From positions 209,700 to 273,699 of the forward strand of contig DAOSEN010000002.1 of the NCBI GenBank assembly GCA_035363155.1: a DNA stretch of 64,000 nt, read 5' to 3'. The notes beneath the pieces are model-generated. The model ran no database searches and was not told the DNA's origin. It saw nothing but the letters and a program-made list of their open reading frames with translations. Source of the stretch: Candidatus Cloacimonadota bacterium. Lineage in GTDB: Bacteria; Cloacimonadota; Cloacimonadia; Cloacimonadales; Cloacimonadaceae. This document shows positions 38,721-56,117 of this stretch, one piece after another (position 1 is the first letter of the stretch; every line of letters begins with the position of its first letter). Made by a program: the position numbers and the translations under genes.

Positions 38721-40994
38721 TTAGAAGGTAGTGCCAAACTGCAGATGTGGTTCCCAACCGCCTTCATCGAGATTGTAGGCATAATCAAAACCGATCAGGC
38801 CAAAGGGACTGCGAATCCGGATGCCGGCACCCACCCCTTTCTTAAGATTAAGGAAATTGAAATCACGCAGCTTGTTGTAGCTATCTCCAGCATCGAAGAA
38901 TCCCACTCCGATGATCTGATCTCCAGCTATGGGATAACCCAGCTCCGTAGAGAATATGATCGCTCTGGTGCCACCACCCACAGGGCCAATGGAACGATCT
39001 GGATATCCCCGGATCCCATCAGCACCAGTACCGCCCAAATAGAACTTTTCATCCGGTGGAGCGTCATCTGATGAGCCATAAGGCGTGATATAAGAGAATC
39101 TCCACTTGGTGCGGATGGTCAGCTTCTTCCAGGCTTCGGAATACCAGTTTACCTGGGCTATCTGCTTGAAATAATCAAAGTCTCCAGCCAGAGGACCACC
39201 TGCAAGTTCTGTATAGAGCGTCATCTGTGAACCCCGGGTGGGGAAAAACACATTGTCGCGGGTATCACGTGAGAGAGTGAAATTGGCTGCCGAGGTGTAT
39301 CTCCAGCCCAGTTTATCCAGCTCGATCAGGGTGGCATTTGCCACTGAATCTGCCATAACAGCATTCAGACTGGTGATATTGTATTTCTTGGAGTAGAAGG
39401 CATAGCCCAATACCCCACGGGTGCGATCCACCCAGGGAATCGATTGACCCAGGCGCAAGGCCGCACCACGGGTATAGATCTCATAATTGAATGAGCTCCA
39501 GCTCTTCTTGGTATAGTAGATATTGGTGCCCAGAAGGATGTCACTGTCATATAGATTGGGATTGGTGAAATTGAATTCGAAGTTTTGGGTACTGCCCCCA
39601 AACTCCCACGTCAGCCCACTGCTCCAGTTGTTTCCAAAGAGATTGTTTTGCGATACCGAGAGCTGACCCACGAATTTATCCTGGGAATTGTACCCGATTC
39701 CGCCATTGGCCACTCCGCTGGATTTATCCACCACATCTACTTGCAGATCGATATCACCATTGTTGTTGATGCGATTGTAATCCAGCCTGATATCCGGCTC
39801 GAAAAAGCCCAGATTGTAGATATTCTGCTGGCTGCGGATCACCTGGCTCTGGCGGTAGTAATCACCAGGAGCGATTTCAAGCTGCCGGCGCAGTACCTTT
39901 TCTTTGGTTCTGCGGTTGCCGGTGAAATGAATCTGCCTGATCCTGGCACGGGTATTCTCTTTGATCTTCAGGGCTACGTTCAGTTTATCACTTTCTTTCT
40001 TGTATTCAGGCTGAATCTCAGTATAGATATAGCCTTCGTCAAAATACAGCGAATACACTTGGGCAAGCTGGCGGTCAAACCGTTCCTGATCAAATACTTC
40101 ACCGCTCTTCAGGGTAAAGATCTGCTCGATCGTCTCTTTGGTAAAATTGTCGTTGCCACTGATATCCAGAGTGCCGAACTGATACTGGATGCCTTCATTG
40201 ATCGTGATGACCAGTTCCGAATAGCGGTCGGATACGGTTTGCAATTCATAAGGCCCCACCCGTACATCTATAAAGCCATTCTTCTTGTAGAAATTCGCCA
40301 GGGATACCAGATCAGCATCGAATTTTACTTGCTCAAATCGGCCTGAGCGCAGGAAATTGGCAGGCTTGGTCTTCATCCGGCGCAAAAGTTGTTTATCGTC
40401 GTAGCTCTCATTGCCAAGGAAAGTAACTGTCTTGATCGCCACTCTTTTGCCTTCATCCACCCGCACCGTGATGGCAACCTTGTTCTCCGGCAGTGTTTGC
40501 TCGAGGATCTCCAGGCTGGCATTGCTGAATCCTTTGGTGGAGTATTCTGCTTTTAGTTTGCGTTCCAATTGGTTTCTCAGGTTGCCGCTCCAATACGAGC
40601 CTACTCTGAGAGTCACGAGTTCATCGATTCTCTCTTTTTTTACTACTTTGAACCCTTGATAGGTAACCGAGGAAACCACCGGATTTTCCACCACCCGAAC
40701 GATCAGGTTGATCCCATTACGATAGGGCTCGCTATGAAACTGAATATCAGCAAACACACCCATCCGATAGAGGTTTTTGATGCTTCGGGATACATCCTCA
40801 GGATCGAGGGCATCTCCCACCCGCATGCTTATGGCTGAAGTCACCAGTTCCGGAGCTATATTCTGAGCTCCTTCCACCTGCACTTCATATATGGTTTCAC
40901 CTGCGCCCCACAGCCCGGCTGTGAGGACAAGTAACATCATTATCAGGACATTATACTTCAGAAATCTTGGCATATTTCCTCCACTGTAGTACAA
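38721..40994 (-). CDS. bamA: Outer-membrane protein assembly factor BamA (POTRA repeats plus Omp85 barrel)
   Basis: Signal peptide and repeated POTRA-like segments (I..I.F.GN....). The C-terminal barrel ends ..HLQFGTTF. Confidence 0.85.
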   Translation of the reverse strand: MYYSGGNMPRFLKYNVLIMMLLVLTAGLWGAGETIYEVQVEGAQNIAPELVTSAISMRVGDALDPEDVSRSIKNLYRMGVFADIQFHSEPYRNGINLIVRVVENPVVSSVTYQGFKVVKKERIDELVTLRVGSYWSGNLRNQLERKLKAEYSTKGFSNASLEILEQTLPENKVAITVRVDEGKRVAIKTVTFLGNESYDDKQLLRRMKTKPANFLRSGRFEQVKFDADLVSLANFYKKNGFIDVRVGPYELQTVSDRYSELVITINEGIQYQFGTLDISGNDNFTKETIEQIFTLKSGEVFDQERFDRQLAQVYSLYFDEGYIYTEIQPEYKKESDKLNVALKIKENTRARIRQIHFTGNRRTKEKVLRRQLEIAPGDYYRQSQVIRSQQNIYNLGFFEPDIRLDYNRINNNGDIDLQVDVVDKSSGVANGGIGYNSQDKFVGQLSVSQNNLFGNNWSSGLTWEFGGSTQNFEFNFTNPNLYDSDILLGTNIYYTKKSWSSFNYEIYTRGAALRLGQSIPWVDRTRGVLGYAFYSKKYNITSLNAVMADSVANATLIELDKLGWRYTSAANFTLSRDTRDNVFFPTRGSQMTLYTELAGGPLAGDFDYFKQIAQVNWYSEAWKKLTIRTKWRFSYITPYGSSDDAPPDEKFYLGGTGADGIRGYPDRSIGPVGGGTRAIIFSTELGYPIAGDQIIGVGFFDAGDSYNKLRDFNFLNLKKGVGAGIRIRSPFGLIGFDYAYNLDEGGWEPHLQFGTTF

Positions 40995-41182
40995 GCAAGC
41001 TATCTTTGGGAAAGCCCCTTTTTCGTAAAGTCTTTTTTGTTAGGTATAATAATAAGATGATGTCAAGCGTTTTCTAATGAGCAACATCAGGAAGGGCTAT
41101 TGTAAAAATACTTTCGGTCATATCAATAGCTATCCATCCAGAATGAGTTTATGCTTGACACATAATAAGCGAAATAGGCAGG

Positions 41183-42457
41183 GTGATTTTAAGTACTGTC
41201 CAGGAGGTGGATGTGTTTAAAAAAGTCAAGATTAAAAATTTTAAAGGCATTGTGGACTTGACATTAGATCTTGATAGATTTAACATTTTAATCGGTGCCA
41301 ACTCATCAGGTAAAACAACAATCCTTCAAGCACTTGATTTATTAATAGGCTGTGTGTCCAGAGATGTTCAGGAGTATCTTCGAGACAGAAAGTGGACAGT
41401 ATCTGACATAAGGTCACAGTTAACAAAAAGTCGTACCATCTCATTTGAGGCTATAATTGAGCTTCCCCTTGATGAAGCTGTGGAAGCATTCTTATGGTGT
41501 ATTGATTTTCAGGTAGTCATAAAAACAAATACGATCCTACTTGAGTCAGAAACCCTTTCCAGAATAGATCCTGTTTGGTTTGTGAACCTGGGCTATGAAG
41601 CTGCCTACAAAGCTGAAAACGGGAACGATAATTTACTATACCATTATACTGATGGCAAGGTCTTTTATGGGACTCCTCTGCTTAACAGACACGTTGACAT
41701 TCAGAGTGATAATCTGCAATTCAAGTTATCATCATCAGTTCTGAAGATATTCGAGTTCAGTGATGATGATGTTGTCTTTGGTGCTATAAATAGGTTGAAG
41801 GCTTTTCTGACTAATTCAAATTACTTCGAAACCCTGGCTGCAGAAAATATGAGAGTCTCCAGTAGAGGAAAAACAGACAATATTGGAAAAGGTGGAAAGC
41901 GTTTAGCAGCGTTCATTAAGCAGTTCAACTACGATCAAAGGAAGCATTATCTAGACACTCTCAACGGGATTTTGAAAAACATCAGAAGCATTGAAGCAGT
42001 TACAAAGGGAGTTCCCGGTTGGGTTGAATTGTATGTTGGCGAGTCATATCTAGAGAATCAGATCAAGGTCAAGCCCTCGCATATCAGTGATGGCACTTTG
42101 AGAATTATGGCACTTATTGCATTACTTCAAACCGTGAATAATCCAGGATTAATCATGCTCGATGAGATTGAGAATGGCCTAAATCCCTTCATTACAGCCA
42201 AAATTGCTGAATTGTTAAATACCAAGTCACTTGAAACTTATCAACAAATGATCTTCACTACCCATAGCTCACTCATGCTGGACGATTTCAAACCAGACGA
42301 CATTATCTATGTTTATCGTTCAGAAAATGGACATATTAACGCCAAAAAAATCTTTCATACTAAAAAACTCCGAGAATATCTTGAGTATATGAATCCTGGA
42401 GAAATCTGGATTAATTCGACTGAAGCAGAATTACTTGGAGAGAATGATCAATTATGA
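41183..42457 (+). CDS. ABC/SMC-type ATPase (AAA_15/AAA_21-like), first gene of a two-gene islet
   Basis: IKNFKGI...FNILIGANSSGKTTILQAL (Walker A), LIMLDEIENGLNP (Walker B/D-loop) and IFTTHSSLMLD (H-loop). The likely true start is the GTG at 41213, 5 nt after AGGAGG. The gene is AT-rich by eye compared with bamA. Confidence 0.8.
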   Translation: MILSTVQEVDVFKKVKIKNFKGIVDLTLDLDRFNILIGANSSGKTTILQALDLLIGCVSRDVQEYLRDRKWTVSDIRSQLTKSRTISFEAIIELPLDEAVEAFLWCIDFQVVIKTNTILLESETLSRIDPVWFVNLGYEAAYKAENGNDNLLYHYTDGKVFYGTPLLNRHVDIQSDNLQFKLSSSVLKIFEFSDDDVVFGAINRLKAFLTNSNYFETLAAENMRVSSRGKTDNIGKGGKRLAAFIKQFNYDQRKHYLDTLNGILKNIRSIEAVTKGVPGWVELYVGESYLENQIKVKPSHISDGTLRIMALIALLQTVNNPGLIMLDEIENGLNPFITAKIAELLNTKSLETYQQMIFTTHSSLMLDDFKPDDIIYVYRSENGHINAKKIFHTKKLREYLEYMNPGEIWINSTEAELLGENDQL

Positions 42458-43134
42458 GTATGATCAAAGTAATGATTTGTGGTGAAGGGCCAAGTGATGT
42501 AGGTAAAACAGATTACGAATCTCAAAAATGGATTCCTGGTCCAGCCGTTGCCTTTGTCGAAAAAGCCTTCGCACATGATACCACAATTATAGCAATTAGT
42601 AGACAAGACTTATTACACAATCATAAGCACCGACTTGGAAGGATTAGAAGCAAAAAAGGGCATGCAGTTAAAGCCGAAAGACTAGCAAAACTGGCTCGCA
42701 GACAAAACTGTAATATAGCAATATGCTATATTGATTGTGATAGAAATGAATTTGACAGTCTTTATAACGATGTTATATTGGGTTTTGATAGATCTGAGAC
42801 TAAAATAGTTGGAATCCCCATGCTACCAAAACCAATGATTGAAGCGTGGCTCATGGGGGACAAGAACGCATATCTTCAGGTGTTAGGTAAAATACCTTCT
42901 AAACCATCTCTGCCCCGCAAACCCGAAGAACTGCGCGGCGACAAAAGCAACCCATCTAGCAATTATGCCAAAAATGTCTTAAGTAGGGTTATCAGTCAGT
43001 TTAGCATAAAAGACGATCATTGGCGTTATGAGATAGCTATTCAAAGCGATCCAGATACAATGAGCAGGATTTGCCCAATTAGTTACGGCAGGTTCTTGAA
43101 CGATGCATTGACCTCGCTTTCTCTTGTTTTATAG
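42454..43134 (+). CDS. Toprim-like partner protein (DUF4276/RloB/AriB-like by motif order)
   Basis: ATGA overlap with the ATPase stop. Motifs in order: VMICGEGPSD (Glu11), YIDCDRNEF (Asp94/Asp96) and PMIEAWLMGD. Family assignment is from memory, not from a search. Confidence 0.55.
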   Translation: MSMIKVMICGEGPSDVGKTDYESQKWIPGPAVAFVEKAFAHDTTIIAISRQDLLHNHKHRLGRIRSKKGHAVKAERLAKLARRQNCNIAICYIDCDRNEFDSLYNDVILGFDRSETKIVGIPMLPKPMIEAWLMGDKNAYLQVLGKIPSKPSLPRKPEELRGDKSNPSSNYAKNVLSRVISQFSIKDDHWRYEIAIQSDPDTMSRICPISYGRFLNDALTSLSLVL

Positions 43135-43170
43135 AGCATTTCATTTATATTTCCCAGATCGTAACTCCCC

Positions 43171-43905
43171 CTAATTCTCCAGGATTTTACCCAAGCCTGT
43201 ATCCAATTGCTTATCCCGGATTTGTGAGCTTCGCAGAACGATATCCCCCAAGCCCGTATCCGCTGCCAGAAAACCTATCTGGCTGTTTGCCACGGTGATG
43301 GCACCATTACCGGTGTTCACTTCTACCCGATCAGCCTGGCACGAATTCAGCAGGATAGCTCCATTCCCACTATCCAATACCAGTTTCTTTGCACTGCAAT
43401 TATCTGCTTCCATAGCCCCATTGCCTGTATCGATGCTGATTTCCTGACTGCCTTGCATGGCACTGATTTGGACTTCTCCATTCCCGGATGAGGCTTTGAG
43501 GGATAGAGCTTTGGGAATGCTGCCGTCCACACTGGTGATCAGGACTGGCTTCCCGGACTGGGTATGGCTTATCAGCCTCGAACCATCAATTCTGAAACTG
43601 GCATCACCAGGTTTGTACTCCCGATATCCGATCAGCAGTTCAGCAGTATCTGAATCGCTGCCAGTCAGGCTGATAGTGGCAGATTCCAGATCCAATTGCA
43701 GAAGGTCTCCAATCACAGCCTGAGACACTGTAATGGAGCCATTGTGCCTTAGCTTTACGCCATTTACAGATGAAAAGCTGCCCAGATTGTCTTCCACGGT
43801 ATCCTGGATCTTTACTGTCTGTTTGGAAAACCAGGCGCTGATGTCTTTTTGAAAAAACAGAATTGTAACGAGCAGAATGAGTAGGATAGCGATTAAGGCT
43901 CTCAT
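43171..43905 (-). CDS. DUF4097-like beta-repeat (putative adhesin) protein with an N-terminal TM anchor
   Basis: Repeated (D/N)(T/S)GNGA(I/M) motifs: IDTGNGAMEAD, LDSGNGAILLN, VNTGNGAITVA and ADTGLGDIVL. Confidence 0.6.
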   Translation of the reverse strand: MRALIAILLILLVTILFFQKDISAWFSKQTVKIQDTVEDNLGSFSSVNGVKLRHNGSITVSQAVIGDLLQLDLESATISLTGSDSDTAELLIGYREYKPGDASFRIDGSRLISHTQSGKPVLITSVDGSIPKALSLKASSGNGEVQISAMQGSQEISIDTGNGAMEADNCSAKKLVLDSGNGAILLNSCQADRVEVNTGNGAITVANSQIGFLAADTGLGDIVLRSSQIRDKQLDTGLGKILEN

Positions 43906-44097
43906 TTGTACTCCCTGGGAGTGTATTTACTACCGAACCCGTTATTTTCAATCCTGCTACTGTCAAGTGAATTCATGATCCAGCCTTGCTCTGGAACAAA
44001 AAGTGCATCCAAACTGCGCAGGTATTGCTGCTTACTACCCCGGCAGAGGTGTATCCGCTGCTTGCATTCCTTTAGGGCGATACCACAGGAGATTGTC

Positions 44098-46971
44098 ATG
44101 AAAGCAAGATTAATCTGGATTTGTCTGATTCTGTTGTCACTGAGCATTGTTTATGCAAATACCGGCTGGGAAGCCCCCCAGAGGAAAACCAGTCACCCGA
44201 TGCCCAGTGCGGATTTTTACCGCTGGAGCCAAGCCCGAGCCGATAGTGCTCATGGTTTTGACGTGCAAAAATACGTGATTGACCTCACGATCAATACCAG
44301 TAGCCAGCACATTAGCGGCAATGTCCTCGCTACTGTGGAAGCTACAGACGTCCTTCCCTTCATCAGTTATGAACTTGTCGGGCTTACCGTTAGTTCTGTG
44401 AAAGTAAATGGCATCATCAGCACTTTCACCCATACCAATGGCATCATCCAGATCCCTGTGAATGCCATTGCCGGACAGATCTTCACCACCCAGGTCTATT
44501 ACAGCGGCAATCCCCAGCTCAGTGCCAATCTCTACAGTATCGGCATGCATTTTGTCACAAATTCTGTCTTCACTATCTCCGATCCTGATGCCGGACGCCA
44601 ATGGTGGCCGTGTTATGACCACCCCTGGGATAAAGCCGTCGTGGATCTGCATATCACCATGCGCAACGATTGGAAAGTAGCCGCCAACGGACTGCGGCAC
44701 AGCATTACCGACAATGGTAATGGAACTGCCACCACCATCTGGCTGGGTGAACATCCCATGACCACCTATCTGGTTTGCATTACTGCCGGGCCTTATGTGG
44801 AGATCGCTCAGAGCGCTCTTGAAGGTGAACTGCCTATCCTCAGTTTCGTTACCCAGGCGCAGTACAACAATGCTATGATAGATTTTGCCCCGGTACCCGC
44901 CATGATCGATTATTTCTCTCAGATCTTTGGCCCCTATCCCTTTGAAAAATACGGGCATGCCACGGTAAGCATGAATACCTATGGTGCTATGGAACACCAG
45001 ACGATGACCACTCTGGGCAGCTATATCATCACCGGAAATCACACCCACGAGCTCACTATTGCTCACGAACTGGCACATCAATGGTATGGCAATGCGGTCA
45101 GTTTCTTGGATTTCAAAGATGTCTGGCTCTCGGAAGGTTTTGCTACCTATTCGGAACATTTATGGACAGACAAGGCCCTGGGCTGGGCTTCTGCCTGCGC
45201 CTATGTCCTGAGCAGTTACCACACTTACTACATGAACTGGGAAAATGCCAATGGAGCCGCAACAATCTACAATCCCAGCTTTTACAACTATTTCTCTCCG
45301 CCTTCCTATGAAAAAGGTGCCAGCGTCCTCCACATGCTGCGGCTCAAGATCGGCAATGCCAATTTCTTCCAACTCCTCTCCCAGTGGTTTGAGACCTACA
45401 AACACGGCAATGCCATCACCAGTGAGTTTCAAGCTCTGGCAGAATCCATCAGCGGTATGGACCTCACCCAATTTTTCCATCAGTGGATCTATGGCAATGG
45501 CATCCCCTCAGTGCAATACAGCGTCCTGAGCAAATCCACCCCGGAACCGCAGGTGAAAATCCTGGCTAAAAGCGCATCTCCCACGGCTACAGACTTCCAC
45601 CTGGAAGTTCCCTTCCGGATCGTGCACAGCACAGGTACAGACAGCCTCCTGGTGCACGCCACTCCCAATGGTGCCATAAACATCTTCACAGGCATCCCCA
45701 GCCCCGATGAGGTGATTGCGAATTACAACAATTGGACTCTGCTCCGGGGAATCACATCCGTAGCCCCCGTAATCACTGAATGCCTGGCTTCCAACGCCTC
45801 GGTGCTCTTGTCCTGGCCGGAATTTGGCTTTGGTGAGGGTTACCGGTATCTGCTCTGGCGCAAAACCACTACAGAGCAGACCTGGCAGCAGATTACACCC
45901 ATCCCTCTAACCCAGACCACATATACCGATACAAACGTGCAAAACGGCATCACCTACCAGTACCTCCTGCGCGCCATAGATTTGGATGATTTTGTCAGCC
46001 AGCCCTCAGCCCTTGCAAGCGCTACTCCGGTAGTCTTCAGCTTTGCCAGCTATCTCCTTGTCGTGGATGAATCCCGGGATGGCAATGGCACCAATATCAA
46101 TCCCAACGACCAGATGGTGGATGATTTTTATGCCGCTGCTCTGGCCCCAATCCCCTATTCCACCTGGGATATCGCCAGCCAGGGAGCCCCACCCCTCAGT
46201 ACCCTGGGAAACTACAAGATCCTCTTCTGGCACGATGATGACTTTTCGGAGAATCTCCTGCTCAGCCACCAGGGCCTGCTGTCCAGCTATCTGCTGGGAG
46301 GCGGCAAGGTCATCATTTCCGGCTGGAAAACCGCCTCGGTACTCATGCAGGAGTTTATCAACCGCTTCTCCCCCGGGCTGGAAATTTACTATGACAACGG
46401 AGCCAGCCTCATCAGCGCTGAGAGCCAGAACTATCCCACCCTGCTGGTGGATCCAAACAAACTGGTAGCCCCCTGGAATGGCATGCTGCCCATGATCTAC
46501 ACCTTTGGGGGTGATCTCCCCAGCCTCTATACAGCCAATATGCTTCCCAGCGCCAATGGCCAGGGACGCAGCCTCGCCTTTCATCAGGGCAATCTCTGCT
46601 TCTTTGGCTTCCCCCTCTACTTCATGCAAGCCGAAGGGGTGCGCAGCCTGATGCAACAGCTCCTGCCCGAGCTCCATCCTGTCTCCAGTGAGGATCCTCT
46701 CGCCAGCCCCAATGCCATGCACCTGAGCGCCTATCCCAATCCCTTCAATCCCAGCACCACCATCTCTTTCAGCCTGCCCCGTTCCGGAACCGCCACGCTG
46801 AATCTCTACAATCCCAAAGGCCAGAAAGTCCTCTGCCTTGCCACCGGAGATTTCCAGAAGGGTACCCACAGCGTGCAGCTCGATGCCAGCAGCCTGGCCA
46901 GCGGGGTTTACCTGCTCCGGCTCGATACCGCTGGACACCGCTTCACCCGGAAAATCACTCTGATGAAGTAG
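44098..46971 (+). CDS. M1-family aminopeptidase with Fn3-like and T9SS C-terminal sorting domains
   Basis: HELAHQWYGN and WLSEGFATY zinc motifs. The C-terminus is AYPNPFNPSTTISFSLP...LNLYNPKGQKV...GVYLLRLD...KITLMK. The start is taken at MKARLIWICLILL (44098) rather than the ORF-track 43906. Confidence 0.85.
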   Translation: MKARLIWICLILLSLSIVYANTGWEAPQRKTSHPMPSADFYRWSQARADSAHGFDVQKYVIDLTINTSSQHISGNVLATVEATDVLPFISYELVGLTVSSVKVNGIISTFTHTNGIIQIPVNAIAGQIFTTQVYYSGNPQLSANLYSIGMHFVTNSVFTISDPDAGRQWWPCYDHPWDKAVVDLHITMRNDWKVAANGLRHSITDNGNGTATTIWLGEHPMTTYLVCITAGPYVEIAQSALEGELPILSFVTQAQYNNAMIDFAPVPAMIDYFSQIFGPYPFEKYGHATVSMNTYGAMEHQTMTTLGSYIITGNHTHELTIAHELAHQWYGNAVSFLDFKDVWLSEGFATYSEHLWTDKALGWASACAYVLSSYHTYYMNWENANGAATIYNPSFYNYFSPPSYEKGASVLHMLRLKIGNANFFQLLSQWFETYKHGNAITSEFQALAESISGMDLTQFFHQWIYGNGIPSVQYSVLSKSTPEPQVKILAKSASPTATDFHLEVPFRIVHSTGTDSLLVHATPNGAINIFTGIPSPDEVIANYNNWTLLRGITSVAPVITECLASNASVLLSWPEFGFGEGYRYLLWRKTTTEQTWQQITPIPLTQTTYTDTNVQNGITYQYLLRAIDLDDFVSQPSALASATPVVFSFASYLLVVDESRDGNGTNINPNDQMVDDFYAAALAPIPYSTWDIASQGAPPLSTLGNYKILFWHDDDFSENLLLSHQGLLSSYLLGGGKVIISGWKTASVLMQEFINRFSPGLEIYYDNGASLISAESQNYPTLLVDPNKLVAPWNGMLPMIYTFGGDLPSLYTANMLPSANGQGRSLAFHQGNLCFFGFPLYFMQAEGVRSLMQQLLPELHPVSSEDPLASPNAMHLSAYPNPFNPSTTISFSLPRSGTATLNLYNPKGQKVLCLATGDFQKGTHSVQLDASSLASGVYLLRLDTAGHRFTRKITLMK

Positions 46972-47035
46972 GGAACTGAGTTCACACATCGTCTGCAAGA
47001 TCGGTTTGAGCCTATTCGGCTGGCTCTTGTTTGAA

Positions 47036-51277: not shown

Positions 51278-51591
51278 TATGGGTTTTTGCATGACAAGAT
51301 ACCTGGCTGTGCTGAGTTAACAGATTTTTCTCCTTTACAGAATTACTCTTGAAGACAAAGTGGACTTTATGTATGGAATACCTAAGCTCAGCCAAGTTAT
51401 CAACAAGGATTATGGATGTATGACTTCGAATAATACCCTTGGTTCTATTGCAGATTCGGTTAAGGAAACCGATAGCTATATCCTGTTGCCTGAAATAGAG
51501 CAGCAAGGAAAAAACATGTTTGCACAGAAGTCAGTAGTCGAAGCAATAAACAAGGCTTTTATGAAAATCTGTTTAACGGCAGGAGAAATTG

Positions 51592-51960
51592 TGACCCTGT
51601 CCCATTTTTTACACCACGTGTAAGTTGACACGTTTGCTATCGACATTGTTTTCATAGTTTTCTCTGAATTTCGCTGGAGGCATGTAGTTCAGGGCACTGT
51701 GGGGTCGATTCATGTTGTAATCCAACCGCCAATTCATGATCACATCTCTTGCTTCCAGTAAATCTCCAAAACAATTAAGGTCAAGACATTCTTTTCTGAA
51801 CTTGCCATTGAAGCTCTCGACAAAGGCATTCTGTTGTGGCTTCCCGGGAGCGATGAAGCTGAGATCAACCTTGTTATCCTGTGACCATTTGAACATGACT
51901 GAGCTACGGAATTCGGGGCGGGGAGACCGTAAAAAACAAAATGCTGCTGATGAAGTAGTA
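51592..51960 (-). pseudogene. 3' remnant of an IS3-family insertion sequence (C-terminal rve fragment plus one terminal IR)
   Basis: The minus-strand fragment ..IAPGKPQQNAFVESFNGKFRKECL...NMNRPHSALNYMPP is the end of an IS3-type OrfB. On the plus strand TGACCCTGTCCCATTTTTT starting at 51592 is the complement of the element's terminal inverted repeat, so on the gene strand the IS would end in ...CA, as IS3-family ends do. The N-terminal two-thirds of the transposase is absent. Confidence 0.7.
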
Positions 51961-52021
51961 TAACCATTAAGTGCGGAGCGGCGCTTGTCGCCGCTCCATA
52001 CCCATTAAACAGGAAGTCCAT

Positions 52022-53653
52022 ATGAAGAAGTATATACTGATGTCAATGCTCCTGATACCCTTGCTGGTATTTGGGATTACCAGACATGTGTCCCTGGATG
52101 GAACTCAGGACTATACGTCCATTCAAGCAGCTATCAATGATGCCCAAAGCGGAGATGTGGTATTGGTGCATCCAGGCCGCTATATTGAAAACATCGATCT
52201 CTCTAATAAACAGAATATTACTCTGACATCTATGGAATACACCACCGGAGATTCTACCTTCGTTAGCTCAACAATCATCGACGGCTCCGCAAACGCCAAT
52301 TCCACAGTTCTATTCTATGAAAACGCCGTGAATATCACTCTCAGAGGGTTTTCGATTACGGGTGGCAGAGGATATGATTACTTTAATGGAGCTTCACCTC
52401 GTCAGATATTCGGAGGTGGTATATTCTTCCACGCCAACTGTAGCGGTATTCTTCTTAACCTGCATGTGTATGGAAACAAGGCATCTATGGGGGGAGGGGT
52501 AGCTATTCTTCAGACCAATAGCGTTTCGCTTTCGAATGTCAACATCTACAACAATATGGCTCGTTATATTGGAGGCGGGCTTGATATCGGCAGTTCACCT
52601 CAGGGTGGTTCGCCTACTATAATCTTTTCCCAAACCGACAGATGCAGCATATACAACAATTTCGCCCAGTGGGGCATGGATATTCATTGGCATTATATTC
52701 ATTATGGCACGGTTTCAGTCTATCTGAAGAAGTTCACTGTGCCCAGTTATGAGCGATATTATGCCGATCATTATGATGCTGGATACGACGCATCTCCTTA
52801 TGTGGTGTTTGATGTTCAGGAAGCCTATCTGCAGCCGGTTGATGCGGACATCTATGTAAGCCCCCAGGGAAGTGATAGTAATGATGGGCTGAGCCCTAGC
52901 ACCGCCCTAAAAACTCCCTCGCTGGGCATACAGAGAATTGCCAGCAATCCAGCTCAACCCCAGACTGTCCACCTTATGGCTGGAACCCATCACAACGTCT
53001 TTATGGATGAGTATATCCCCATTGCCATTAAGGATTATACAATTCTGCAGGGTGTATCCGAATCTCAAACAAGGCTTTACGCCGCAAATCTGATCCGGGG
53101 CACAGGTGTAGTCACCATGGGAATCCAGCGGTATGGGATGCGGATGAAAAATGTGTCCATCTCCACAAGCATGGCATCTGCACTCTTCAGTTGGGAGATT
53201 TTTGATTGCCATTATGAAAACATTACTCTCTACACAGAATCTAAAAACAACAACATTCCTGAGAGATATTACTCGTCTGCGTCATTAGACATAGGTAATA
53301 TAGTTATGGATAATGGTAAGCACTTGTTCTCCGTTGTAAGTCTTGGTGGAGGACAAGAAAGCGAAACAATCGTTACCCCGGTCATGTCAGCAATGATCTA
53401 TCCCAATCCAATGCGCGGTAATACCAATATTGAAGTTAATACCACTGCCAAAAGTGTTGTTGACATCAGTATATATAATCTTAAGGGGCAGTTAGTTAGA
53501 AAAATCGATTCCGCTGAAATCTTAAAAGGCAATACATCCTTTATCTGGAATGGTTTAGCTGATGATGGCAAGCCTGTTGCACAAGGAATATACTTCTGTA
53601 GGATAAAGTCCCAAAACTATCTATTGACAAAGAAGCTGATTGTCTTAGATTAA
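52022..53653 (+). CDS. Secreted right-handed beta-helix protein with a T9SS C-terminal domain (transposon cargo)
   Basis: Signal peptide MKKYILMSMLLIPLLVFG. Beta-helix context ITLRGFSITGGRG..GGGIFF. The C-terminus is IYPNPMRGNTNIEV..ISIYNLKGQLV..GIYFCRIK..KKLIVLD. Confidence 0.8.
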   Translation: MKKYILMSMLLIPLLVFGITRHVSLDGTQDYTSIQAAINDAQSGDVVLVHPGRYIENIDLSNKQNITLTSMEYTTGDSTFVSSTIIDGSANANSTVLFYENAVNITLRGFSITGGRGYDYFNGASPRQIFGGGIFFHANCSGILLNLHVYGNKASMGGGVAILQTNSVSLSNVNIYNNMARYIGGGLDIGSSPQGGSPTIIFSQTDRCSIYNNFAQWGMDIHWHYIHYGTVSVYLKKFTVPSYERYYADHYDAGYDASPYVVFDVQEAYLQPVDADIYVSPQGSDSNDGLSPSTALKTPSLGIQRIASNPAQPQTVHLMAGTHHNVFMDEYIPIAIKDYTILQGVSESQTRLYAANLIRGTGVVTMGIQRYGMRMKNVSISTSMASALFSWEIFDCHYENITLYTESKNNNIPERYYSSASLDIGNIVMDNGKHLFSVVSLGGGQESETIVTPVMSAMIYPNPMRGNTNIEVNTTAKSVVDISIYNLKGQLVRKIDSAEILKGNTSFIWNGLADDGKPVAQGIYFCRIKSQNYLLTKKLIVLD

Positions 53654-53783
53654 CCAAACCAGCTTGTTGAAGCTATTAGGCGGGGGTTCGTCCCCGCCTG
53701 ATAGTGACAATCAATGGCTATGAAAACGACATGACGTTCAACAAGCAATCATACCATAGAATTATTATGGATAGGACTATATT

Positions 53784-56117
53784 ATGAATAAATATTCAGT
53801 GATAATACTGATGTGGATAGCACTGGGGGCTTGTTCAATAAAGGCAGGGATAATCGTAGTCGCGTCCGATGGCTCGGGTCAAGTTTCATCAATTCAATCG
53901 GGGATAAATATGGCTGCAGTTGGTGATACTGTGCTACTCTCACATGGAGTATGGTCTGGAGTTGCGGTTATCGACAATAAACCCATAACAATTGGAAGTT
54001 ACTACATTATTGATGGCGATACTACTCATATTACTCAAACTATCATAGATGGGGAAGACACACGAACTGGCATTATCATCAAAAACTGTGGTGGGGCTGT
54101 CGATACTCTAAGTGTAATTGGCTTAACAATAAGAAATTGCAGGAGTAATTGGTACCCCCATACATCTGATTACTCCATTGGGGGTGGCATTGGCATTGGA
54201 TTATCTGTAGTTAACGTGACAAGATGCGTGATTTATCATAATAGAGCCTATTTTGGAGGAGGGATAGGAGTTTCTCGATCATTTGTATATCTATATGGCA
54301 ATGAGATATACTCTAACAATGCCATTACATCGGGTGGAGGATTAAGTGGGCTTGGTTATAACAACATGTACATCTACTTCGATACCGAACGCCGTAACAG
54401 TATATATCTTAATAATGCCTCAAGAGGTTGTGATATCAGTTATGCATACGACAACATTCCTACCTCAGTTTATCTCAATAGAGGATCAGTTGACTATTTA
54501 AACCAGTATTTCTATTTTCTCCCCGATCAAACACCCGTATTCATCAATCAGCCTATGATTGTACAGGTTAACCAGGATCTTTGGGTCAGTCCCGATGGAG
54601 ATAATGATAATGACGGAGCATCTCCCCAAACGCCTTTACAAAATATCTCTTATGCTTTATCTAAGATACAGACATCCAGTAACACTACCCGCACAATTAA
54701 TGTGATGCCGGGGGTGTATTCTTGGAGTCAAACCGGTGAAGCTTTGCCTCTGCAACTGAAGAGTTACGTAAATTTGATTGGCTCAGCAATGGATGATGTC
54801 ATACTTGATGCTGAGCAATACGGAACATTTATCAGCGGAAGAGATGCTCAGGACTATATGAGTATTAAAAACATGACTTTGACTAACGGACACTCAACAC
54901 ATTATTATTTATTCTATCTGGACGTTGTTGTGAGTGGCAACACCAATGATATAACCGTGGAGAACATCCATATAAGAGACTCATGGGCTAAATCCGCAGC
55001 TTTAGTAATCGCATCCTGTTATAATATTACAGTAAACAATCTCATCATAGAGGATTCGCAGGTGGGGATTGGATTCTTTATATCTTGTTATGAGACTGGA
55101 TACTTTTCGAATTTCAGGGTGCAACGGCTAAGCCCCACAAACATAGACGCATACAATACATTCTGCCAGAGTGGAGGTATACAAAAGCCGTTAAGCGCTT
55201 CATCGCTTTATACTATCATCAATATATCTAACTTCTTGATAACGGATAACGTTGATACTTCTCAATTTTGGGAGAATATGACAAGTGGTTTGGCAATCAG
55301 TGTAGAGGGCGGAAACTGCGACTTGAATGTTAACAACTGCACCATAGCCAACAATAGCACTACAACCGAAGGTGCAGGATTCGGAATAAACTTGGAGAAT
55401 TGTAATGCGCAAGTGACTAATACTATAATCTCGGGAAACACTCCCTACGAAGTGGCAATGTTCTCTTATGACGAATCCACCTTTGCTGATGTTTCATTTA
55501 ACAATTGCCTCGTAACTGGCGGTAGCGATAGCTTCTTTGTCTTGGGTGGGGACATTACCCATACTTGGGCAGATGGCAATATGTTTGGATCTCCGTCTTT
55601 TCTGGGTGGAGATACTGACGATCCATTGTATTACAGCCTTGCAACAAATTCACCTTGTATAGACACTGGCACACCAGACACAACAGGGCTTGATCTCCCC
55701 CTCTACGATCTTGCGGGTAACTGGCGAATATGGAATGGTAGGATAGATATGGGCTGCTATGAATACGGTTCTGAGCCGTGGGTAAGCAATGATGATCCGG
55801 TAGTACCGGAGATACCGGCCATAAAACTGGTCGCATATCCCAATCCCTTCCAGACGTTTTCTAACATCAAAATATCTATACCGATTGAATACAGCAACAA
55901 AATGACTGGCATAAGTGAAGCGAGCATTGATATTTATAACATCAAAGGCCAGAAAGTGAAGGCGTTTTCCTTTGACCCAAGAAGTTCCCTCGAACAGGTC
56001 ATAACGTGGGATGGTAAGGATCAAAATGGAAACAACTGCCCCAGTGGTCTATACATTATAAATCTCACAATAGCCGGTGAACATGTAGCAAACAGAAAAG
56101 TAACTCTAGTTAAGTAG
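53784..56117 (+). CDS. Secreted right-handed beta-helix protein with a T9SS C-terminal domain (transposon cargo)
   Basis: Signal peptide present. Beta-helix context LTIRNC..GGGIGI..GGGIGV. The C-terminus is AYPNPFQTFSNIKISIP..IDIYNIKGQKV..GLYIINLT..RKVTLVK. Confidence 0.8.
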   Translation: MNKYSVIILMWIALGACSIKAGIIVVASDGSGQVSSIQSGINMAAVGDTVLLSHGVWSGVAVIDNKPITIGSYYIIDGDTTHITQTIIDGEDTRTGIIIKNCGGAVDTLSVIGLTIRNCRSNWYPHTSDYSIGGGIGIGLSVVNVTRCVIYHNRAYFGGGIGVSRSFVYLYGNEIYSNNAITSGGGLSGLGYNNMYIYFDTERRNSIYLNNASRGCDISYAYDNIPTSVYLNRGSVDYLNQYFYFLPDQTPVFINQPMIVQVNQDLWVSPDGDNDNDGASPQTPLQNISYALSKIQTSSNTTRTINVMPGVYSWSQTGEALPLQLKSYVNLIGSAMDDVILDAEQYGTFISGRDAQDYMSIKNMTLTNGHSTHYYLFYLDVVVSGNTNDITVENIHIRDSWAKSAALVIASCYNITVNNLIIEDSQVGIGFFISCYETGYFSNFRVQRLSPTNIDAYNTFCQSGGIQKPLSASSLYTIINISNFLITDNVDTSQFWENMTSGLAISVEGGNCDLNVNNCTIANNSTTTEGAGFGINLENCNAQVTNTIISGNTPYEVAMFSYDESTFADVSFNNCLVTGGSDSFFVLGGDITHTWADGNMFGSPSFLGGDTDDPLYYSLATNSPCIDTGTPDTTGLDLPLYDLAGNWRIWNGRIDMGCYEYGSEPWVSNDDPVVPEIPAIKLVAYPNPFQTFSNIKISIPIEYSNKMTGISEASIDIYNIKGQKVKAFSFDPRSSLEQVITWDGKDQNGNNCPSGLYIINLTIAGEHVANRKVTLVK

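What the first reader, a model, noticed from the sequence alone, without database searches (positions are those of the whole stretch)
41183..43134. AT-rich two-gene islet: ABC/SMC-type ATPase translationally coupled to a small Toprim-like protein (candidate uncharacterised defence module)
A plus-strand gene pair sits between two conserved minus-strand genes (bamA and a DUF4097-like gene). Its composition is visibly more AT-rich than its neighbours.

**Gene 1 (424 aa).**
- It has an N-terminal Walker A (LIGANSSGKTT).
- A long insert follows, then Walker B/D-loop (LIMLDEIENGLNP) and H-loop (FTTHSS).
- This is the AAA_15/AAA_21 layout shared by OLD, AriA (PARIS), AbiLi and GajA.

**Gene 2 (226 aa).**
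- It overlaps gene 1 by ATGA.
- It shows, in order, a strand-end Glu (VMICGEGPSD), a DxD (YIDCDRNEF) and a later acidic motif (PMIEAWLMGD).
- This is the order expected of a Toprim nuclease. From memory, the EAWL motif is typical of DUF4276.

An ATPase plus a stand-alone Toprim protein is the PARIS/AbiL architecture. This partner is shorter and does not look like AriB. To my knowledge, ATPase plus DUF4276-type pairs have no experimentally defined function.
Basis: partly seen in the sequence, partly recalled or inferred. Interest (0 to 1): 0.72.

Follow-up and report, generated by a model that had tools for sequence, protein, structure and literature searches.

The report
Foreign ATPase–nuclease defence gene pair
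This is a horizontally acquired two-gene cassette in a Cloacimonadota genome: an ABC ATPase tightly coupled to a small DUF4276-type (Toprim-like) protein. It is a divergent member of an already catalogued but untested candidate anti-phage family (PADLOC PDC-M25), so it is real and probably a defence module, but not a new kind of system.

Summary
Two overlapping plus-strand genes (ATPase 41213-42457; partner 42454-43134) form the most AT-rich 2.2 kb of the window (GC 0.38 vs 0.485, z = -3.65).

- **Family.** Gene 1 is an OLD/PtuA-like ABC ATPase with all catalytic motifs. Gene 2 has no Pfam hit itself, but 91 of 104 relatives match DUF4276. E11, D94 and E130 are invariant and D96 is at least 90% conserved.
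- **Catalogue status.** PADLOC assigns the pair to PDC-M25 (A 6e-74, B 1e-16), an untested "guilt-by-embedding" candidate. A canonical PDC-M25 pair sits inside a BREX-1 operon on a Moellerella plasmid.
- **Linkage.** The two genes are adjacent in 34 of the 35 other loci with usable upstream DNA and evolve together (r = 0.95).
- **Insertion.** None of 56 related loci carries the pair. In 11 of them BamA and the M1 peptidase are direct neighbours. One relative carries an AbiL system (ABC ATPase plus RloB) in the same slot and orientation.
- **Limits.** Toprim membership was not confirmed here (Foldseek and hhalign not significant). Most homologous pairs are solitary, not in defence islands.

Verdict: a new, divergent member of a known kind (OLD-type ABC ATPase plus Toprim-like effector), most likely an abortive-infection module. 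Interest is moderate to low.

The parts
41001..43170 (.). AT-rich islet, inferred horizontally acquired insertion between BamA and the DUF4097 / M1-peptidase genes
   Evidence: GC is 0.382, the lowest 2.17-kb window of the 64 kb (z = -3.65). GC3 is 0.34-0.37 vs 0.52-0.65 in the neighbours. The pair is absent from all 56 related BamA loci. No flanking direct or inverted repeats.
41155..41160 (+). TTGACA box, candidate -35 element (weak evidence)
   Evidence: The sequence TGCTTGACACAT is conserved between the window and the 81% orthologue locus L098, at the same distance from the start codon. No canonical -10 follows. The promoter scan is not above shuffles.
41202..41207 (+). Shine-Dalgarno AGGAGG for gene 1
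   Evidence: Read directly from the sequence. It lies 5 nt before GTG 41213. GGGAGG is conserved in L098.
41213..42457 (+). Gene 1: OLD/PtuA-like ABC ATPase, 414 aa (alternative in-frame GTG starts at 41183 and 41207); PADLOC PDC-M25A
   Evidence: Pfam AAA_21 1.5e-29, AAA_15 4.7e-15, SMC_N. PADLOC PDC-M25A 6.3e-74, full length. AF2 model pLDDT 89.1. Foldseek top hits are PtuA, Thermus OLD 6p74, SMC head and Rad50, E about 1e-13.
41294..41317 (+). Walker A / P-loop GANSSGKT (residues 28-35 of the 414-aa form)
   Evidence: G28, N30 and K34 are invariant and G33 nearly so across 29-70 orthologues. Coordinates verified.
41390..41827 (+). Variable insert of the ATPase (about residues 60-205), candidate sensor region (inferred)
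   Evidence: Almost no conserved positions lie here, while the ATPase motifs are invariant. The AF2 model shows a beta-rich insert with low confidence at residues 121-170. The sensor role is inferred by analogy with the poorly conserved trigger-binding surfaces of AriA (PMC11464382).
42086..42103 (+). ABC signature motif SDGTLR (residues 292-297)
   Evidence: D293, G294 and R297 are invariant in 70 sequences. S292 and L296 are invariant or nearly so. Coordinates verified.
42149..42178 (+). Walker B and D-loop LIMLDEIENG (residues 313-322)
   Evidence: E318, E320 and G322 are invariant in 70 sequences and D317 is nearly invariant there. D317 is invariant in the 29-sequence alignment. Coordinates verified.
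42257..42268 (+). H-loop TTHS (residues 349-352)
   Evidence: T350 and H351 are invariant or nearly so. Coordinates verified.
42454..42457 (+). ATGA overlap of the gene 1 stop and gene 2 start (translational coupling)
   Evidence: Read directly from the sequence. In all 28 loci where it could be mapped, the invariant Glu codon of gene 2 lies 4-42 nt (median 24.5) after the ATPase stop.
42454..43134 (+). Gene 2: DUF4276-family, Toprim-like putative metal-dependent nuclease, 226 aa; PADLOC PDC-M25B
   Evidence: PADLOC PDC-M25B 1.1e-16. There are 344 family representatives, and 91 of 104 match Pfam DUF4276. AF2 model pLDDT 96.5, pTM 0.92. No direct Pfam, NCBIfam or PDB hit.
42466..42492 (+). Strand 1 and invariant Glu: KVMICGEGP (E11 codon at 42484-42486)
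   Evidence: E11 is invariant and G12 at least 90% conserved in 104 sequences. Strand 4-10 in the model. Coordinates verified.
42727..42741 (+). DxD motif after strand 3: YIDCD (D94, D96)
   Evidence: D94 is invariant and D96 at least 90% conserved. Strand 88-92 in the model. Coordinates verified.
42832..42852 (+). PMIEAWL motif after strand 4 (E130, W132)
   Evidence: E130 and W132 are invariant. The same P-x-x-E-x-W-L block occurs at the same position in the RloB/AbiLii of L077.
42922..42939 (+). PEELRG in the C-terminal helical domain (E158 invariant)
   Evidence: E158 is invariant and G162 at least 90% conserved. The window has R161 where at least 90% of sequences have W. Coordinates verified.
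38721..40973 (-). Left flank: BamA (POTRA/Omp85), core gene, not part of the module
   Evidence: Pfam annotation of the identical contig L002. Orthologues at 50-93% identity with conserved radical-SAM synteny. Start at the ATG preceded by GGAGG.
43171..43905 (-). Right flank: DUF4097 'toastrack' membrane protein. Host-like composition, but also absent from this slot in relatives. Probably not part of the module.
   Evidence: Pfam DUF4097 1.7e-8 and no PADLOC hit. GC3 0.518. Absent from all 56 related loci. Not among the top 25 Pfam families of the pair's neighbours elsewhere.

Best explanation
The islet is a horizontally acquired, self-contained two-gene conflict (anti-phage) cassette of the 'OLD-type ABC ATPase plus stand-alone Toprim-like effector' class. 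It is a divergent Cloacimonadota member of the PADLOC candidate family PDC-M25.

**Shown here**
- The two genes are translationally coupled and inherited as one unit.
- Gene 1 keeps every catalytic ABC ATPase motif.
- Gene 2 keeps an invariant acidic set (E11, D94, E130, E158; D96 at least 90% conserved). These sit at the ends of strands 1, 3 and 4 of a confidently modelled alpha/beta core, which fits a divalent-metal phosphodiesterase site.

**Inferred by analogy with PARIS, P2 OLD and AbiL**
- The ATPase oligomer holds the small nuclease inactive.
- The ATPase's poorly conserved insert senses a phage-derived trigger, either a protein or an aberrant DNA structure.
- ATP-dependent rearrangement then releases or activates the nuclease.
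- The nuclease cuts host or phage nucleic acid. tRNA is the most likely target given AriB and OLD; DNA nicking as in Gabija is the alternative.
- Infection is aborted.
For: **Family assignment**
- PADLOC gives PDC-M25A 6.3e-74 and PDC-M25B 1.1e-16. The next best families are clearly weaker (HEC-01A 7e-38, AriA 2e-29, AbiLi 4e-28).
- 91 of 104 relatives of gene 2 match DUF4276.
- DUF4276 and RloB are assigned to the Toprim superfamily with the same E / DxD residues in PMC12065111.

**Active enzymes**
- ATPase motifs are invariant. The ATPase fold is closest to the defence ATPases PtuA and OLD.
- Gene 2's acidic residues are invariant at 23% mean family identity. They fall at strand ends in a model with pLDDT 96.5.

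**Functional unit**
- The ATPase is immediately upstream in 34 of the 35 other loci with usable upstream DNA. The exception is L031, and L003 and L030 are cut at contig ends.
- Gene junctions abut or overlap everywhere.
- Identity matrices correlate at r = 0.95, Mantel 0 of 2000.

**Accessory and mobile**
- Extreme AT bias, also seen in four other hosts.
- Absent from 56 related loci, 11 of which have BamA and the M1 peptidase directly adjacent.
- Found at different chromosomal sites in other Cloacimonadota.
- Patchy distribution across at least six phyla.
- Diverges faster than BamA: 81% and 66% vs 93%.

**Defence context**
- A canonical PDC-M25 pair lies between brxC and pglX of a BREX-1 operon on a conjugative plasmid.
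- In relative L077 the same slot, in the same orientation, holds AbiLi plus AbiLii/RloB.
- A HEC-01 representative protected E. coli (PMC12881386).
- TOPRIM-linked OLD-ABC dyads are widespread in BREX loci (PMC12839542).

**Mechanistic precedents**
- PARIS AriA/AriB tRNA cleavage (PMC11464382).
- P2 OLD acts as a tRNase (bioRxiv 10.64898/2026.07.10.737580).
Against: - There is no experimental test of PDC-M25. I found nothing in the literature main text, and it is listed only as 'Assign as candidate'.
- The one HEC-01 tested by Payne et al. gave no defence.
- The window protein itself has no Pfam hit.
- Foldseek finds no significant structural neighbour, and no Toprim protein, in PDB or BFVD.
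- Profile searches against PDB sequences and against RloB are not significant.
- Neighbours of the 33 homologous genomic pairs are overwhelmingly housekeeping; about 5 of 112 hit defence models.
- No defence gene lies within 10 kb in the window.
- In Ca. Cloacimonas the pair sits stably between RNase HII and adenosine deaminase in many assemblies. That would also fit a cellular role.
- The pair is absent from 50,697 phage records and rare on plasmids.
- Substrate and trigger are pure inference.
Confidence: 0.65

Rival explanations
1. It is an orphaned accessory module. The ATPase plus DUF4276 dyad normally works as a backup or auxiliary effector of a methylation-based system (BREX, type I R-M, Hma, MADS). 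The solitary copy in this genome is inactive on its own, or depends on an unlinked partner system.
For: - PDC-M25 was defined from cassettes embedded in BREX, DISARM or type I R-M systems.
- The canonical Moellerella pair is inside BREX-1.
- Mad3-Mad4 are parts of the eight-gene MADS.
- HEC-01 alone gave no defence in one study.
- The BREX survey interprets such dyads as backup effectors.
Against: - Nearly all of the 33 genomic homologues, plus the Cloacimonas and Skermanella copies, are solitary and intact.
- Catalytic residues are invariant.
- PARIS and AbiL, which share this architecture, work autonomously.
- A HEC-01 representative alone protected E. coli B.
Confidence: 0.13
2. It is a selfish addiction or anti-plasmid module rather than an anti-phage system. 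The nuclease and ATPase would behave like a toxin-antitoxin pair that stabilises the DNA segment carrying it, or would target incoming plasmids.
For: - It has foreign composition and is present or absent among close relatives.
- Pfam labels AAA_21 as 'putative AbiEii toxin, type IV TA'.
- Tight coupling of a potentially toxic nuclease to a partner.
- Some copies look degraded: gene 2 is split or truncated in L017, L025 and L027.
Against: - No mobility genes or terminal repeats accompany it.
- It is rare on plasmids.
- Long-term vertical retention at one site in Ca. Cloacimonas and in the window/L098 lineage argues for a benefit to the host.
- This reading overlaps with abortive-infection defence rather than excluding it.
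Confidence: 0.12
3. It is a cellular DNA-repair or chromosome-maintenance pair, analogous to RecF (ABC-type ATPase) with RecR (Toprim protein), or to SMC/Rad50-type heads with a nuclease partner.
For: - Gene 1 matches SMC_N and weakly matches RecF/RecN N-termini.
- Foldseek also finds SMC and Rad50 heads.
- The pair is stably placed among housekeeping genes next to RNase HII in Ca. Cloacimonas.
- Neighbours are mostly housekeeping.
Against: - It is absent from 56 closely related loci, so it is not core.
- It is strongly AT-biased against its host in five genomes.
- It has a patchy cross-phylum distribution and diverges faster than BamA.
- Its best matches are all defence ATPase models.
- The RecF and RecN hits cover only the P-loop region and lie far below cutoff.
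Confidence: 0.07

Closest known systems
PADLOC PDC-M25 (phage defence candidate, multi-gene no. 25; cassette CAS_00102, FAM_00005>>FAM_00372; Payne et al. bioRxiv 10.1101/2024.01.29.577857)
   Same: - Both proteins hit the family's HMMs best: A 6.3e-74 over the full length, B 1.1e-16.
- Same gene order, strand and tight junction.
- BLASTP to a canonical member (Moellerella pW1-a) gives 25% and 32% identity, E 7e-33 and 9e-19.
   Different: - It is much more divergent than canonical members, which score 3.9e-143 and 3.2e-86.
- The B-profile match covers only the N-terminal core.
- It is not embedded in BREX, DISARM or R-M but solitary between core genes.
- The host is Cloacimonadota.
HEC-01 (Hma-embedded candidate 01: ABC ATPase plus TOPRIM-like partner)
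   Same: - Same architecture.
- 93 of 104 members of gene 2's family also hit a HEC-01B model.
- Gene 1 hits HEC-01A at 7e-38.
- HEC-01B is reported to share the OLD Toprim metal site.
   Different: - It is a weaker match than PDC-M25.
- The window's gene 2 hits HEC-01B only at 6.5e-4.
- HEC-01 has conflicting experimental results: none, protection.
AbiL (AbiLi ABC ATPase plus AbiLii/RloB)
   Same: - Two overlapping genes: an AAA_21 ATPase of about 420 aa, then a partner of about 220 aa.
- It occupies the identical chromosomal slot and orientation in relative L077.
- The partners share three co-linear motif blocks: C-(G)EG / C-DG-x-TE, Y-I-x-D-x-D, and P-x-x-E-x-W-L.
   Different: - Gene 2 has no RloB or AbiLii hit.
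- The profile-profile comparison is not significant (probability 0.5%).
- Gene 1 hits AbiLi only at 3.8e-28.
PARIS (AriA ABC ATPase plus AriB DUF4435 Toprim tRNase)
   Same: - AAA_15/21 ABC ATPase plus a separate small Toprim-type effector.
- It is the mechanistic template: sequestration, then trigger-induced release.
   Different: - The partner is DUF4276-type and 226 aa, not DUF4435.
- AriA models score 2e-29 or weaker.
- It was not found on phages or satellites.
MADS Mad3-Mad4
   Same: - Mad3 is a related ABC ATPase: PADLOC mad3 4.4e-24 and NCBIfam MAD3 3.7e-32.
- Mad4 is described as a DUF4276 homologue.
- The PARIS paper groups MADS3-4 with the ABC ATPase plus TOPRIM systems.
   Different: - It scores 112 bits against an equivalog cutoff of 420.
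- No methyltransferase or other MADS genes are nearby.
- No mad4 model is among the hits of gene 2 or its family.
OLD family nucleases, Gabija GajA and Septu PtuA
   Same: - The ATPase fold is closest to PtuA and Thermus OLD.
- Same logic of an ABC sensor with a nuclease effector.
   Different: - In OLD and GajA the Toprim domain is fused to the ATPase. Here it is a separate gene.
- The PtuA partner is an HNH nuclease.
- No UvrD-like helicase gene is adjacent.

Membership tests
PADLOC PDC-M25 (candidate system) | Protein A matches the PDC-M25A profile better than any other family | tested here: met
   6.3e-74 (247 bits), residues 12-420 against profile 2-368 of 380. The next best is HEC-01A at 7e-38.
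PADLOC PDC-M25 (candidate system) | Protein B matches a PDC-M25B profile | tested here: met
   1.1e-16, covering only the N-terminal core (3-135 against 1-164 of 246). BLASTP to a canonical member reaches residue 222.
PADLOC PDC-M25 (candidate system) | A and B adjacent on the same strand, with A upstream | tested here: met
   4-nt overlap. The arrangement is conserved across loci.
PADLOC PDC-M25 (candidate system) | Embedded in BREX, DISARM or type I R-M (the discovery criterion, not required of every member) | tested here: not met
   The window pair lies between BamA and DUF4097, with no defence gene within 10 kb. The criterion is met by the Moellerella homologue.
PADLOC PDC-M25 (candidate system) | Anti-phage activity | not testable with these tools
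   No experimental report found.
Pfam DUF4276 (PF14103) | The protein's own sequence matches the Pfam model | tested here: not met
   No Pfam family at E <= 1.
Pfam DUF4276 (PF14103) | Homologues found by profile search belong to the family (transitive membership) | tested here: met
   91 of 104 aligned relatives hit PF14103, best 5.7e-13. Precomputed 'DUF4276 (weak)' on P0007.
Toprim superfamily | Conserved Glu at the end of strand 1 | tested here: met
   E11 is invariant in 104 sequences. It lies directly after strand 4-10 of the model.
Toprim superfamily | DxD motif after strand 3 | tested here: met
   D94 is invariant and D96 at least 90% conserved. They follow strand 88-92.
Toprim superfamily | Three-layer alpha/beta fold with a four-stranded parallel sheet in order 2-1-3-4 | tested here: inconclusive
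   The secondary-structure order (beta-alpha-beta-alpha-beta-alpha-beta) fits. The best partial Foldseek matches are generic alpha/beta sandwiches.
Toprim superfamily | Significant sequence, profile or structural similarity to a bona fide Toprim protein | tested here: not met
   - PDB profile search: no Toprim protein.
- Foldseek PDB: best E 5.8e-3, with no Toprim protein in the top 50.
- BFVD: the top hit is a DnaG/twinkle TOPRIM domain, but at E 6.4e-3 and TM 0.21.
- hhalign against RloB: probability 0.5-0.9%.
- The assignment rests on PMC12065111 and on Payne et al. for HEC-01B.
Toprim superfamily | Metal-dependent phosphodiester cleavage | not testable with these tools
   Needs biochemistry.
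ABC ATPase, OLD / AAA_15 / AAA_21 type | Walker A, ABC signature, Walker B, D-loop and H-loop present and conserved | tested here: met
   GANSSGKT, SDGTLR, LIMLDEIENG and TTHS are present and invariant or nearly so. Pfam hits; fold matches.
PARIS | AriB partner (DUF4435 Toprim) | tested here: not met
   No DUF4435 or AriB hit for gene 2 or its family.
AbiL | AbiLii / RloB partner | tested here: not met
   No RloB or AbiLii hit. hhalign is not significant.
MADS (Mad3/Mad4) | Mad3 equivalog score and presence of the other MADS genes | tested here: not met
   112 bits against a cutoff of 420. No methyltransferase or other MADS genes nearby.
OLD class 1/2 and Gabija | Toprim fused to the ATPase; a UvrD-like helicase neighbour for class 2 / Gabija | tested here: not met
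   The genes are separate and no helicase is adjacent.

The most novel reading that the evidence does not exclude
Two non-excluded readings go beyond 'another PDC-M25'.

(a) **The partner may not be a conventional Toprim nuclease.**
- Despite a near-perfect model (pLDDT 96.5), it has no significant structural neighbour in PDB or BFVD.
- It carries an extra invariant E130-x-W132 / E158 set and a conserved C-terminal helical domain.
- It could therefore represent a distinct catalytic variant with an unanticipated substrate or chemistry.

(b) **The BamA-M1 peptidase junction may be a defence-exchange hotspot.**
- In this Cloacimonadota lineage, non-homologous ATPase-effector cassettes (AbiL vs PDC-M25-like) replace one another in the same orientation.
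- No integrase, tRNA or repeats are present, which implies swapping by recombination in the flanking core genes.
Probability: 0.15. Interest if true: 0.6.

Novelty: new member of a known kind. Interest (0 to 1): 0.35.

Why it matters
- **An uncharacterised effector.** ABC ATPase plus Toprim-type dyads (OLD, Gabija, PARIS, AbiL) are a major theme of bacterial immunity. I found no biochemical characterisation of the DUF4276 branch (PDC-M25, HEC-01, Mad3-4).
- **A minimal test case.** This instance is a clean, solitary two-gene example with intact catalytic residues.
- **A natural comparison.** It comes with an empty site, an AbiL-occupied site and a PDC-M25-occupied site at one chromosomal junction.
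- **An understudied host.** Cloacimonadota are uncultured and abundant in anaerobic digesters.
- **What could be done.** The pair is a reasonable candidate for heterologous testing, and for asking whether DUF4276 effectors are tRNases like AriB and OLD.
- **What it does not do.** It does not change the known picture of how such systems are built.

Tried and rejected
**Searches for gene 2 that found nothing useful**
- Direct Pfam, NCBIfam, PHROG and PDB-sequence searches: nothing.
- Word-index homology search: only 3 hits. The exhaustive HMMER profile search was needed.
- Family profile against PDB sequences: only spurious short matches.
- Foldseek of the gene 2 model against PDB and BFVD: nothing significant.
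- hhalign of the family against one RloB sequence and against a 7-sequence RloB alignment: probability below 1%.

**Technical dead ends**
- Model coordinates are not exposed, so I could not measure active-site geometry or strand order.
- The 104-sequence alignment was too diverse for the genome scan. A 10-sequence alignment worked.
- The first metagenome scan, using the DUF4097 protein, found no relatives. The BamA scan worked.

**Negative results on the islet itself**
- Flanking repeats or target-site duplications: none convincing.
- Promoter and terminator scan: not above shuffles.
- Rfam on the islet: nothing, so no retron-like or other known RNA.
- Phage collection: no homologue.

**Literature**
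- 'PDC-M25' appears in no main text.
- The MANTIS preprint was not relevant to DUF4276.

**Ideas rejected**
- The DUF4097 gene as a third component. It has host-like GC3, no PADLOC hit and is not among the top 25 Pfam families of the pair's neighbours elsewhere.
- Membership of PARIS, AbiL, MADS or Gabija (see the membership test).

Full report
**1. Observation**

The two plus-strand ORFs exist as described: 41183-42457 and 42454-43134, sharing an ATGA overlap.

Gene 1 most likely starts at GTG 41213 (414 aa).
- An AGGAGG box lies at 41202-41207.
- Every profile match begins at residue 12-13 of the long ORF.
- The gene call of an 81%-identical orthologue aligns from residue 1 of the short form.

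The stretch 41001-43170 is the most AT-rich 2.17 kb of the 64-kb window.
- Its GC is 0.382, against a mean of 0.485 (sd 0.028, z = -3.65).
- Its GC3 is 0.34-0.37, against 0.52-0.65 in all neighbouring genes.

The flanks are BamA (POTRA/Omp85) and a DUF4097 'toastrack' protein. An M1 peptidase with a T9SS sorting tail lies further right.

**2. Gene 1**

Pfam gives AAA_21 (1.5e-29), AAA_15 (4.7e-15) and SMC_N. Among 29-70 orthologues the following motifs are invariant or nearly so:

| Motif | Sequence |
|---|---|
| Walker A | GANSSGKT |
| ABC signature | SDGTLR |
| Walker B / D-loop | LIMLDEIENG |
| H-loop | TTHS |

Residues about 60-205 carry almost no conserved positions.

The AlphaFold model (pLDDT 89.1, pTM 0.90) is closest to PtuA (Septu and retron effector complexes), Thermus scotoductus OLD, the SMC head and Rad50. 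These matches have E about 1e-13 to 1e-11 and TM 0.45-0.53. So gene 1 has a defence-type ABC head with no close structural twin.

**3. Gene 2**

The protein itself hits nothing in Pfam, NCBIfam, PHROGs or PDB sequences. The word-index search found only three relatives. An exhaustive HMMER profile search found 344 representatives, nearly all stand-alone proteins of 210-260 aa.

In a 104-sequence alignment with 23% mean identity, E11, D94, E130, W132 and E158 are invariant and D96 is at least 90% conserved. 91 of the 104 members match Pfam DUF4276.

The model is very confident (pLDDT 96.5, pTM 0.92). Its layout is:
- strand 1 (residues 4-10, followed by E11), a helix, strand 2, two helices;
- strand 3 (88-92, followed by D94-x-D96), a helix, strand 4 (119-123);
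- a helix carrying E130, then a helical C-terminal domain.

That is the Toprim order of elements and acidic residues. DUF4276 and RloB were assigned to the Toprim superfamily on exactly these grounds in PMC12065111. HEC-01B was reported to share the OLD metal site.

My own tests did not confirm this.
- Foldseek found no significant neighbour in PDB or BFVD.
- Profile searches against PDB sequences were not significant.
- Profile comparisons with RloB were not significant either.

So Toprim membership is plausible and published, but inconclusive here.

**4. What it is called**

PADLOC assigns the pair to PDC-M25: A 6.3e-74 over the full length, B 1.1e-16. HEC-01, PDC-M07, AriA, AbiLi and mad3 are clearly weaker.

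PDC-M25 is cassette CAS_00102 (FAM_00005>>FAM_00372, count 142). It is one of 145 untested 'phage defence candidates' found embedded in BREX, DISARM or type I R-M systems. No paper main text mentions it.

The sister candidate HEC-01 gave no defence in one study. It protected E. coli B against at least one of T4, T5 and T7 in another (PMC12881386).

**5. The two genes form a unit**

- In 34 of the 35 other loci with usable upstream DNA, a gene-1-like ATPase lies immediately upstream on the same strand. The exception is L031. L003 and L030 are cut at contig ends.
- In all 28 loci where it could be mapped, the invariant Glu codon of gene 2 lies 4-42 nt after the ATPase stop.
- Pairwise identities of the two proteins correlate at r = 0.95 (Mantel 0 of 2000).

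**6. It is an insertion**

56 BamA-orthologue loci from digester and fermentation metagenomes keep the radical-SAM-BamA synteny. None has gene 1, gene 2 or the DUF4097 gene.

In 11 of these loci (BamA 68-71% identical) the M1-peptidase orthologue is divergent and directly upstream of BamA, with a gap of about 300-650 bp.

A sister lineage, L098 (BamA 93% identical), carries the pair at the same slot. There it is only 81% (ATPase) and 66% (partner N-terminus) identical.

Other Cloacimonadota carry 40-53% orthologues at different chromosomal sites.
- One site lies between PTS-EIIA and amidohydrolase genes.
- Another lies between RNase HII and adenosine deaminase in Ca. Cloacimonas, seen in more than 200 assembly blocks.

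In four other host genomes the pair is again more AT-rich than its surroundings. Homologues are scattered over Cloacimonadota, Bacillota, Spirochaetota, Pseudomonadota, Actinomycetota, Chloroflexota, Bacteroidota and Myxococcota. No repeats, integrase, tRNA or Rfam element marks the islet.

**7. Defence context**

Evidence for a defence role:
- On the conjugative Moellerella wisconsensis plasmid pW1-a, a canonical PDC-M25 pair (A 3.9e-143, B 3.2e-86) lies between brxC and pglX of a BREX-1 operon.
- In relative L077 (a Cloacimonetes MAG; BamA 66% identical, peptidase 56%), the very slot between the M1 peptidase and BamA holds AbiLi (3.4e-79) and AbiLii/RloB (Pfam 1.6e-25). They have the same orientation as the window's pair, and an HSDR_N-domain gene takes the place of the DUF4097 gene.
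- AbiLii and gene 2 share three co-linear motif blocks at almost the same positions.
- A 2026 survey reports TOPRIM-linked OLD-ABC dyads inside BREX loci of more than 1,200 taxa and reads them as backup suicidal effectors (PMC12839542).

Evidence against a strong defence-island link:
- The two genes on either side of the pair in 33 genomes are mostly housekeeping. About 5 of 112 hit defence models.
- Nothing defensive lies within 10 kb in the window.
- The family is absent from the phage collection and rare on plasmids.

**8. Mechanism**

*Shown:* coupling of the genes, intact ATPase motifs, and an invariant acidic cluster on a confident alpha/beta core.

*Inferred from precedents:* the ATPase oligomer sequesters the nuclease. 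Its variable insert senses a phage cue. ATP-driven rearrangement then frees or activates the nuclease, which cleaves tRNA (more likely) or DNA and aborts infection. The precedents are:
- PARIS, where AriA holds AriB until a trigger releases it to cut tRNA (PMC11464382);
- P2 OLD, which acts as a tRNase;
- AbiL.

I put about 0.65 on the defence-module reading as a whole, about 0.5 on gene 2 being the nuclease effector, and about 0.25 on tRNA as the substrate.

The rivals are an orphaned accessory of a methylation system, an addiction or anti-plasmid module, and a RecF/RecR-like cellular pair. All three are less likely, given solitary intact copies, presence/absence polymorphism, compositional bias and defence-model matches.

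**9. Verdict**

The architecture, however, was already catalogued (PDC-M25, HEC-01, Mad3-4; 'OLD-ABC plus TOPRIM dyads').

This is a new, divergent member of a known kind. Its added value is twofold. It is a minimal, solitary, intact example in an uncultured phylum. It also has a natural empty / AbiL / PDC-M25 polymorphism at one junction. Interest: 0.35.

Noticed in passing
L077:4202-7475 (CZCA01000013.1; Cloacimonetes MAG), equivalent to window 40974-44199: The junction between BamA and the M1 peptidase is a variable slot. It is empty in 11 relatives. In L077 it holds AbiLi plus AbiLii/RloB and an HSDR_N-domain gene. In the window it holds the PDC-M25-like pair plus a DUF4097 gene. The three-gene layout and orientations are the same in L077 and the window.
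   Followed up: yes
window 43171-43905 (-): The DUF4097 'toastrack' gene has host-like composition (GC3 0.52). Yet it is absent from this position in all 56 related BamA loci. Its origin and any link to the islet are unexplained.
   Followed up: partly
window about 52500-55500: This is a second low-GC patch, with 2.17-kb windows down to GC 0.397. By offset from the annotated identical contig L002, it lies inside the gene for a 1411-aa FG-GAP/PKD repeat protein (about 51445-55680). It is therefore probably a repeat or surface-protein composition effect rather than another islet.
   Followed up: partly
window about 45400-47000: GC rises to 0.54-0.59 over the 3' part of the M1-peptidase gene, which ends in a Por_Secre_tail (T9SS) sorting domain. 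The first start codon in that ORF (43906) over-extends the gene. The likely start is 44200.
   Followed up: no
L101:15820-21224 vs L099, L100 and L102-L104: One Ca. Cloacimonas strain has a BREX system (brxA, brxB, brxC and onward) about 4 kb downstream of its ATPase-DUF4276 pair. Sister strains have xanthine-dehydrogenase-like genes there. This is another strain-variable defence site near the pair.
   Followed up: no
L017:10001-10564; L025:10001-10571; L027:1270-2022: Gene 2 appears truncated or split into two ORFs in some Lachnospiraceae and Succinivibrionaceae MAGs, while the ATPase is intact. This could be pseudogenisation of the putative toxic effector, or MAG assembly errors.
   Followed up: no
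L023:6684-7616 (Treponema MAG); neighbours scanned: A second, shorter gene-1-like ATPase lies about 1.2 kb upstream of the pair. Seven of the 112 neighbour proteins hit the mad3 model. Additional ABC ATPase paralogues therefore sometimes sit next to the pair.
   Followed up: no
L046:3374-4659 (-): Two low-GC genes (0.35-0.37; 98 and 325 aa) with no Pfam or PADLOC hit lie a few kb upstream of BamA in a 77% relative. This may be another foreign islet of unknown function.
   Followed up: partly
window 38721-40994 (-): The BamA ORF as listed starts at a TTG (757 aa). An ATG at 40973 preceded by GGAGG gives 750 aa, matching the call in L098. Another caller chose 738 aa.
   Followed up: partly
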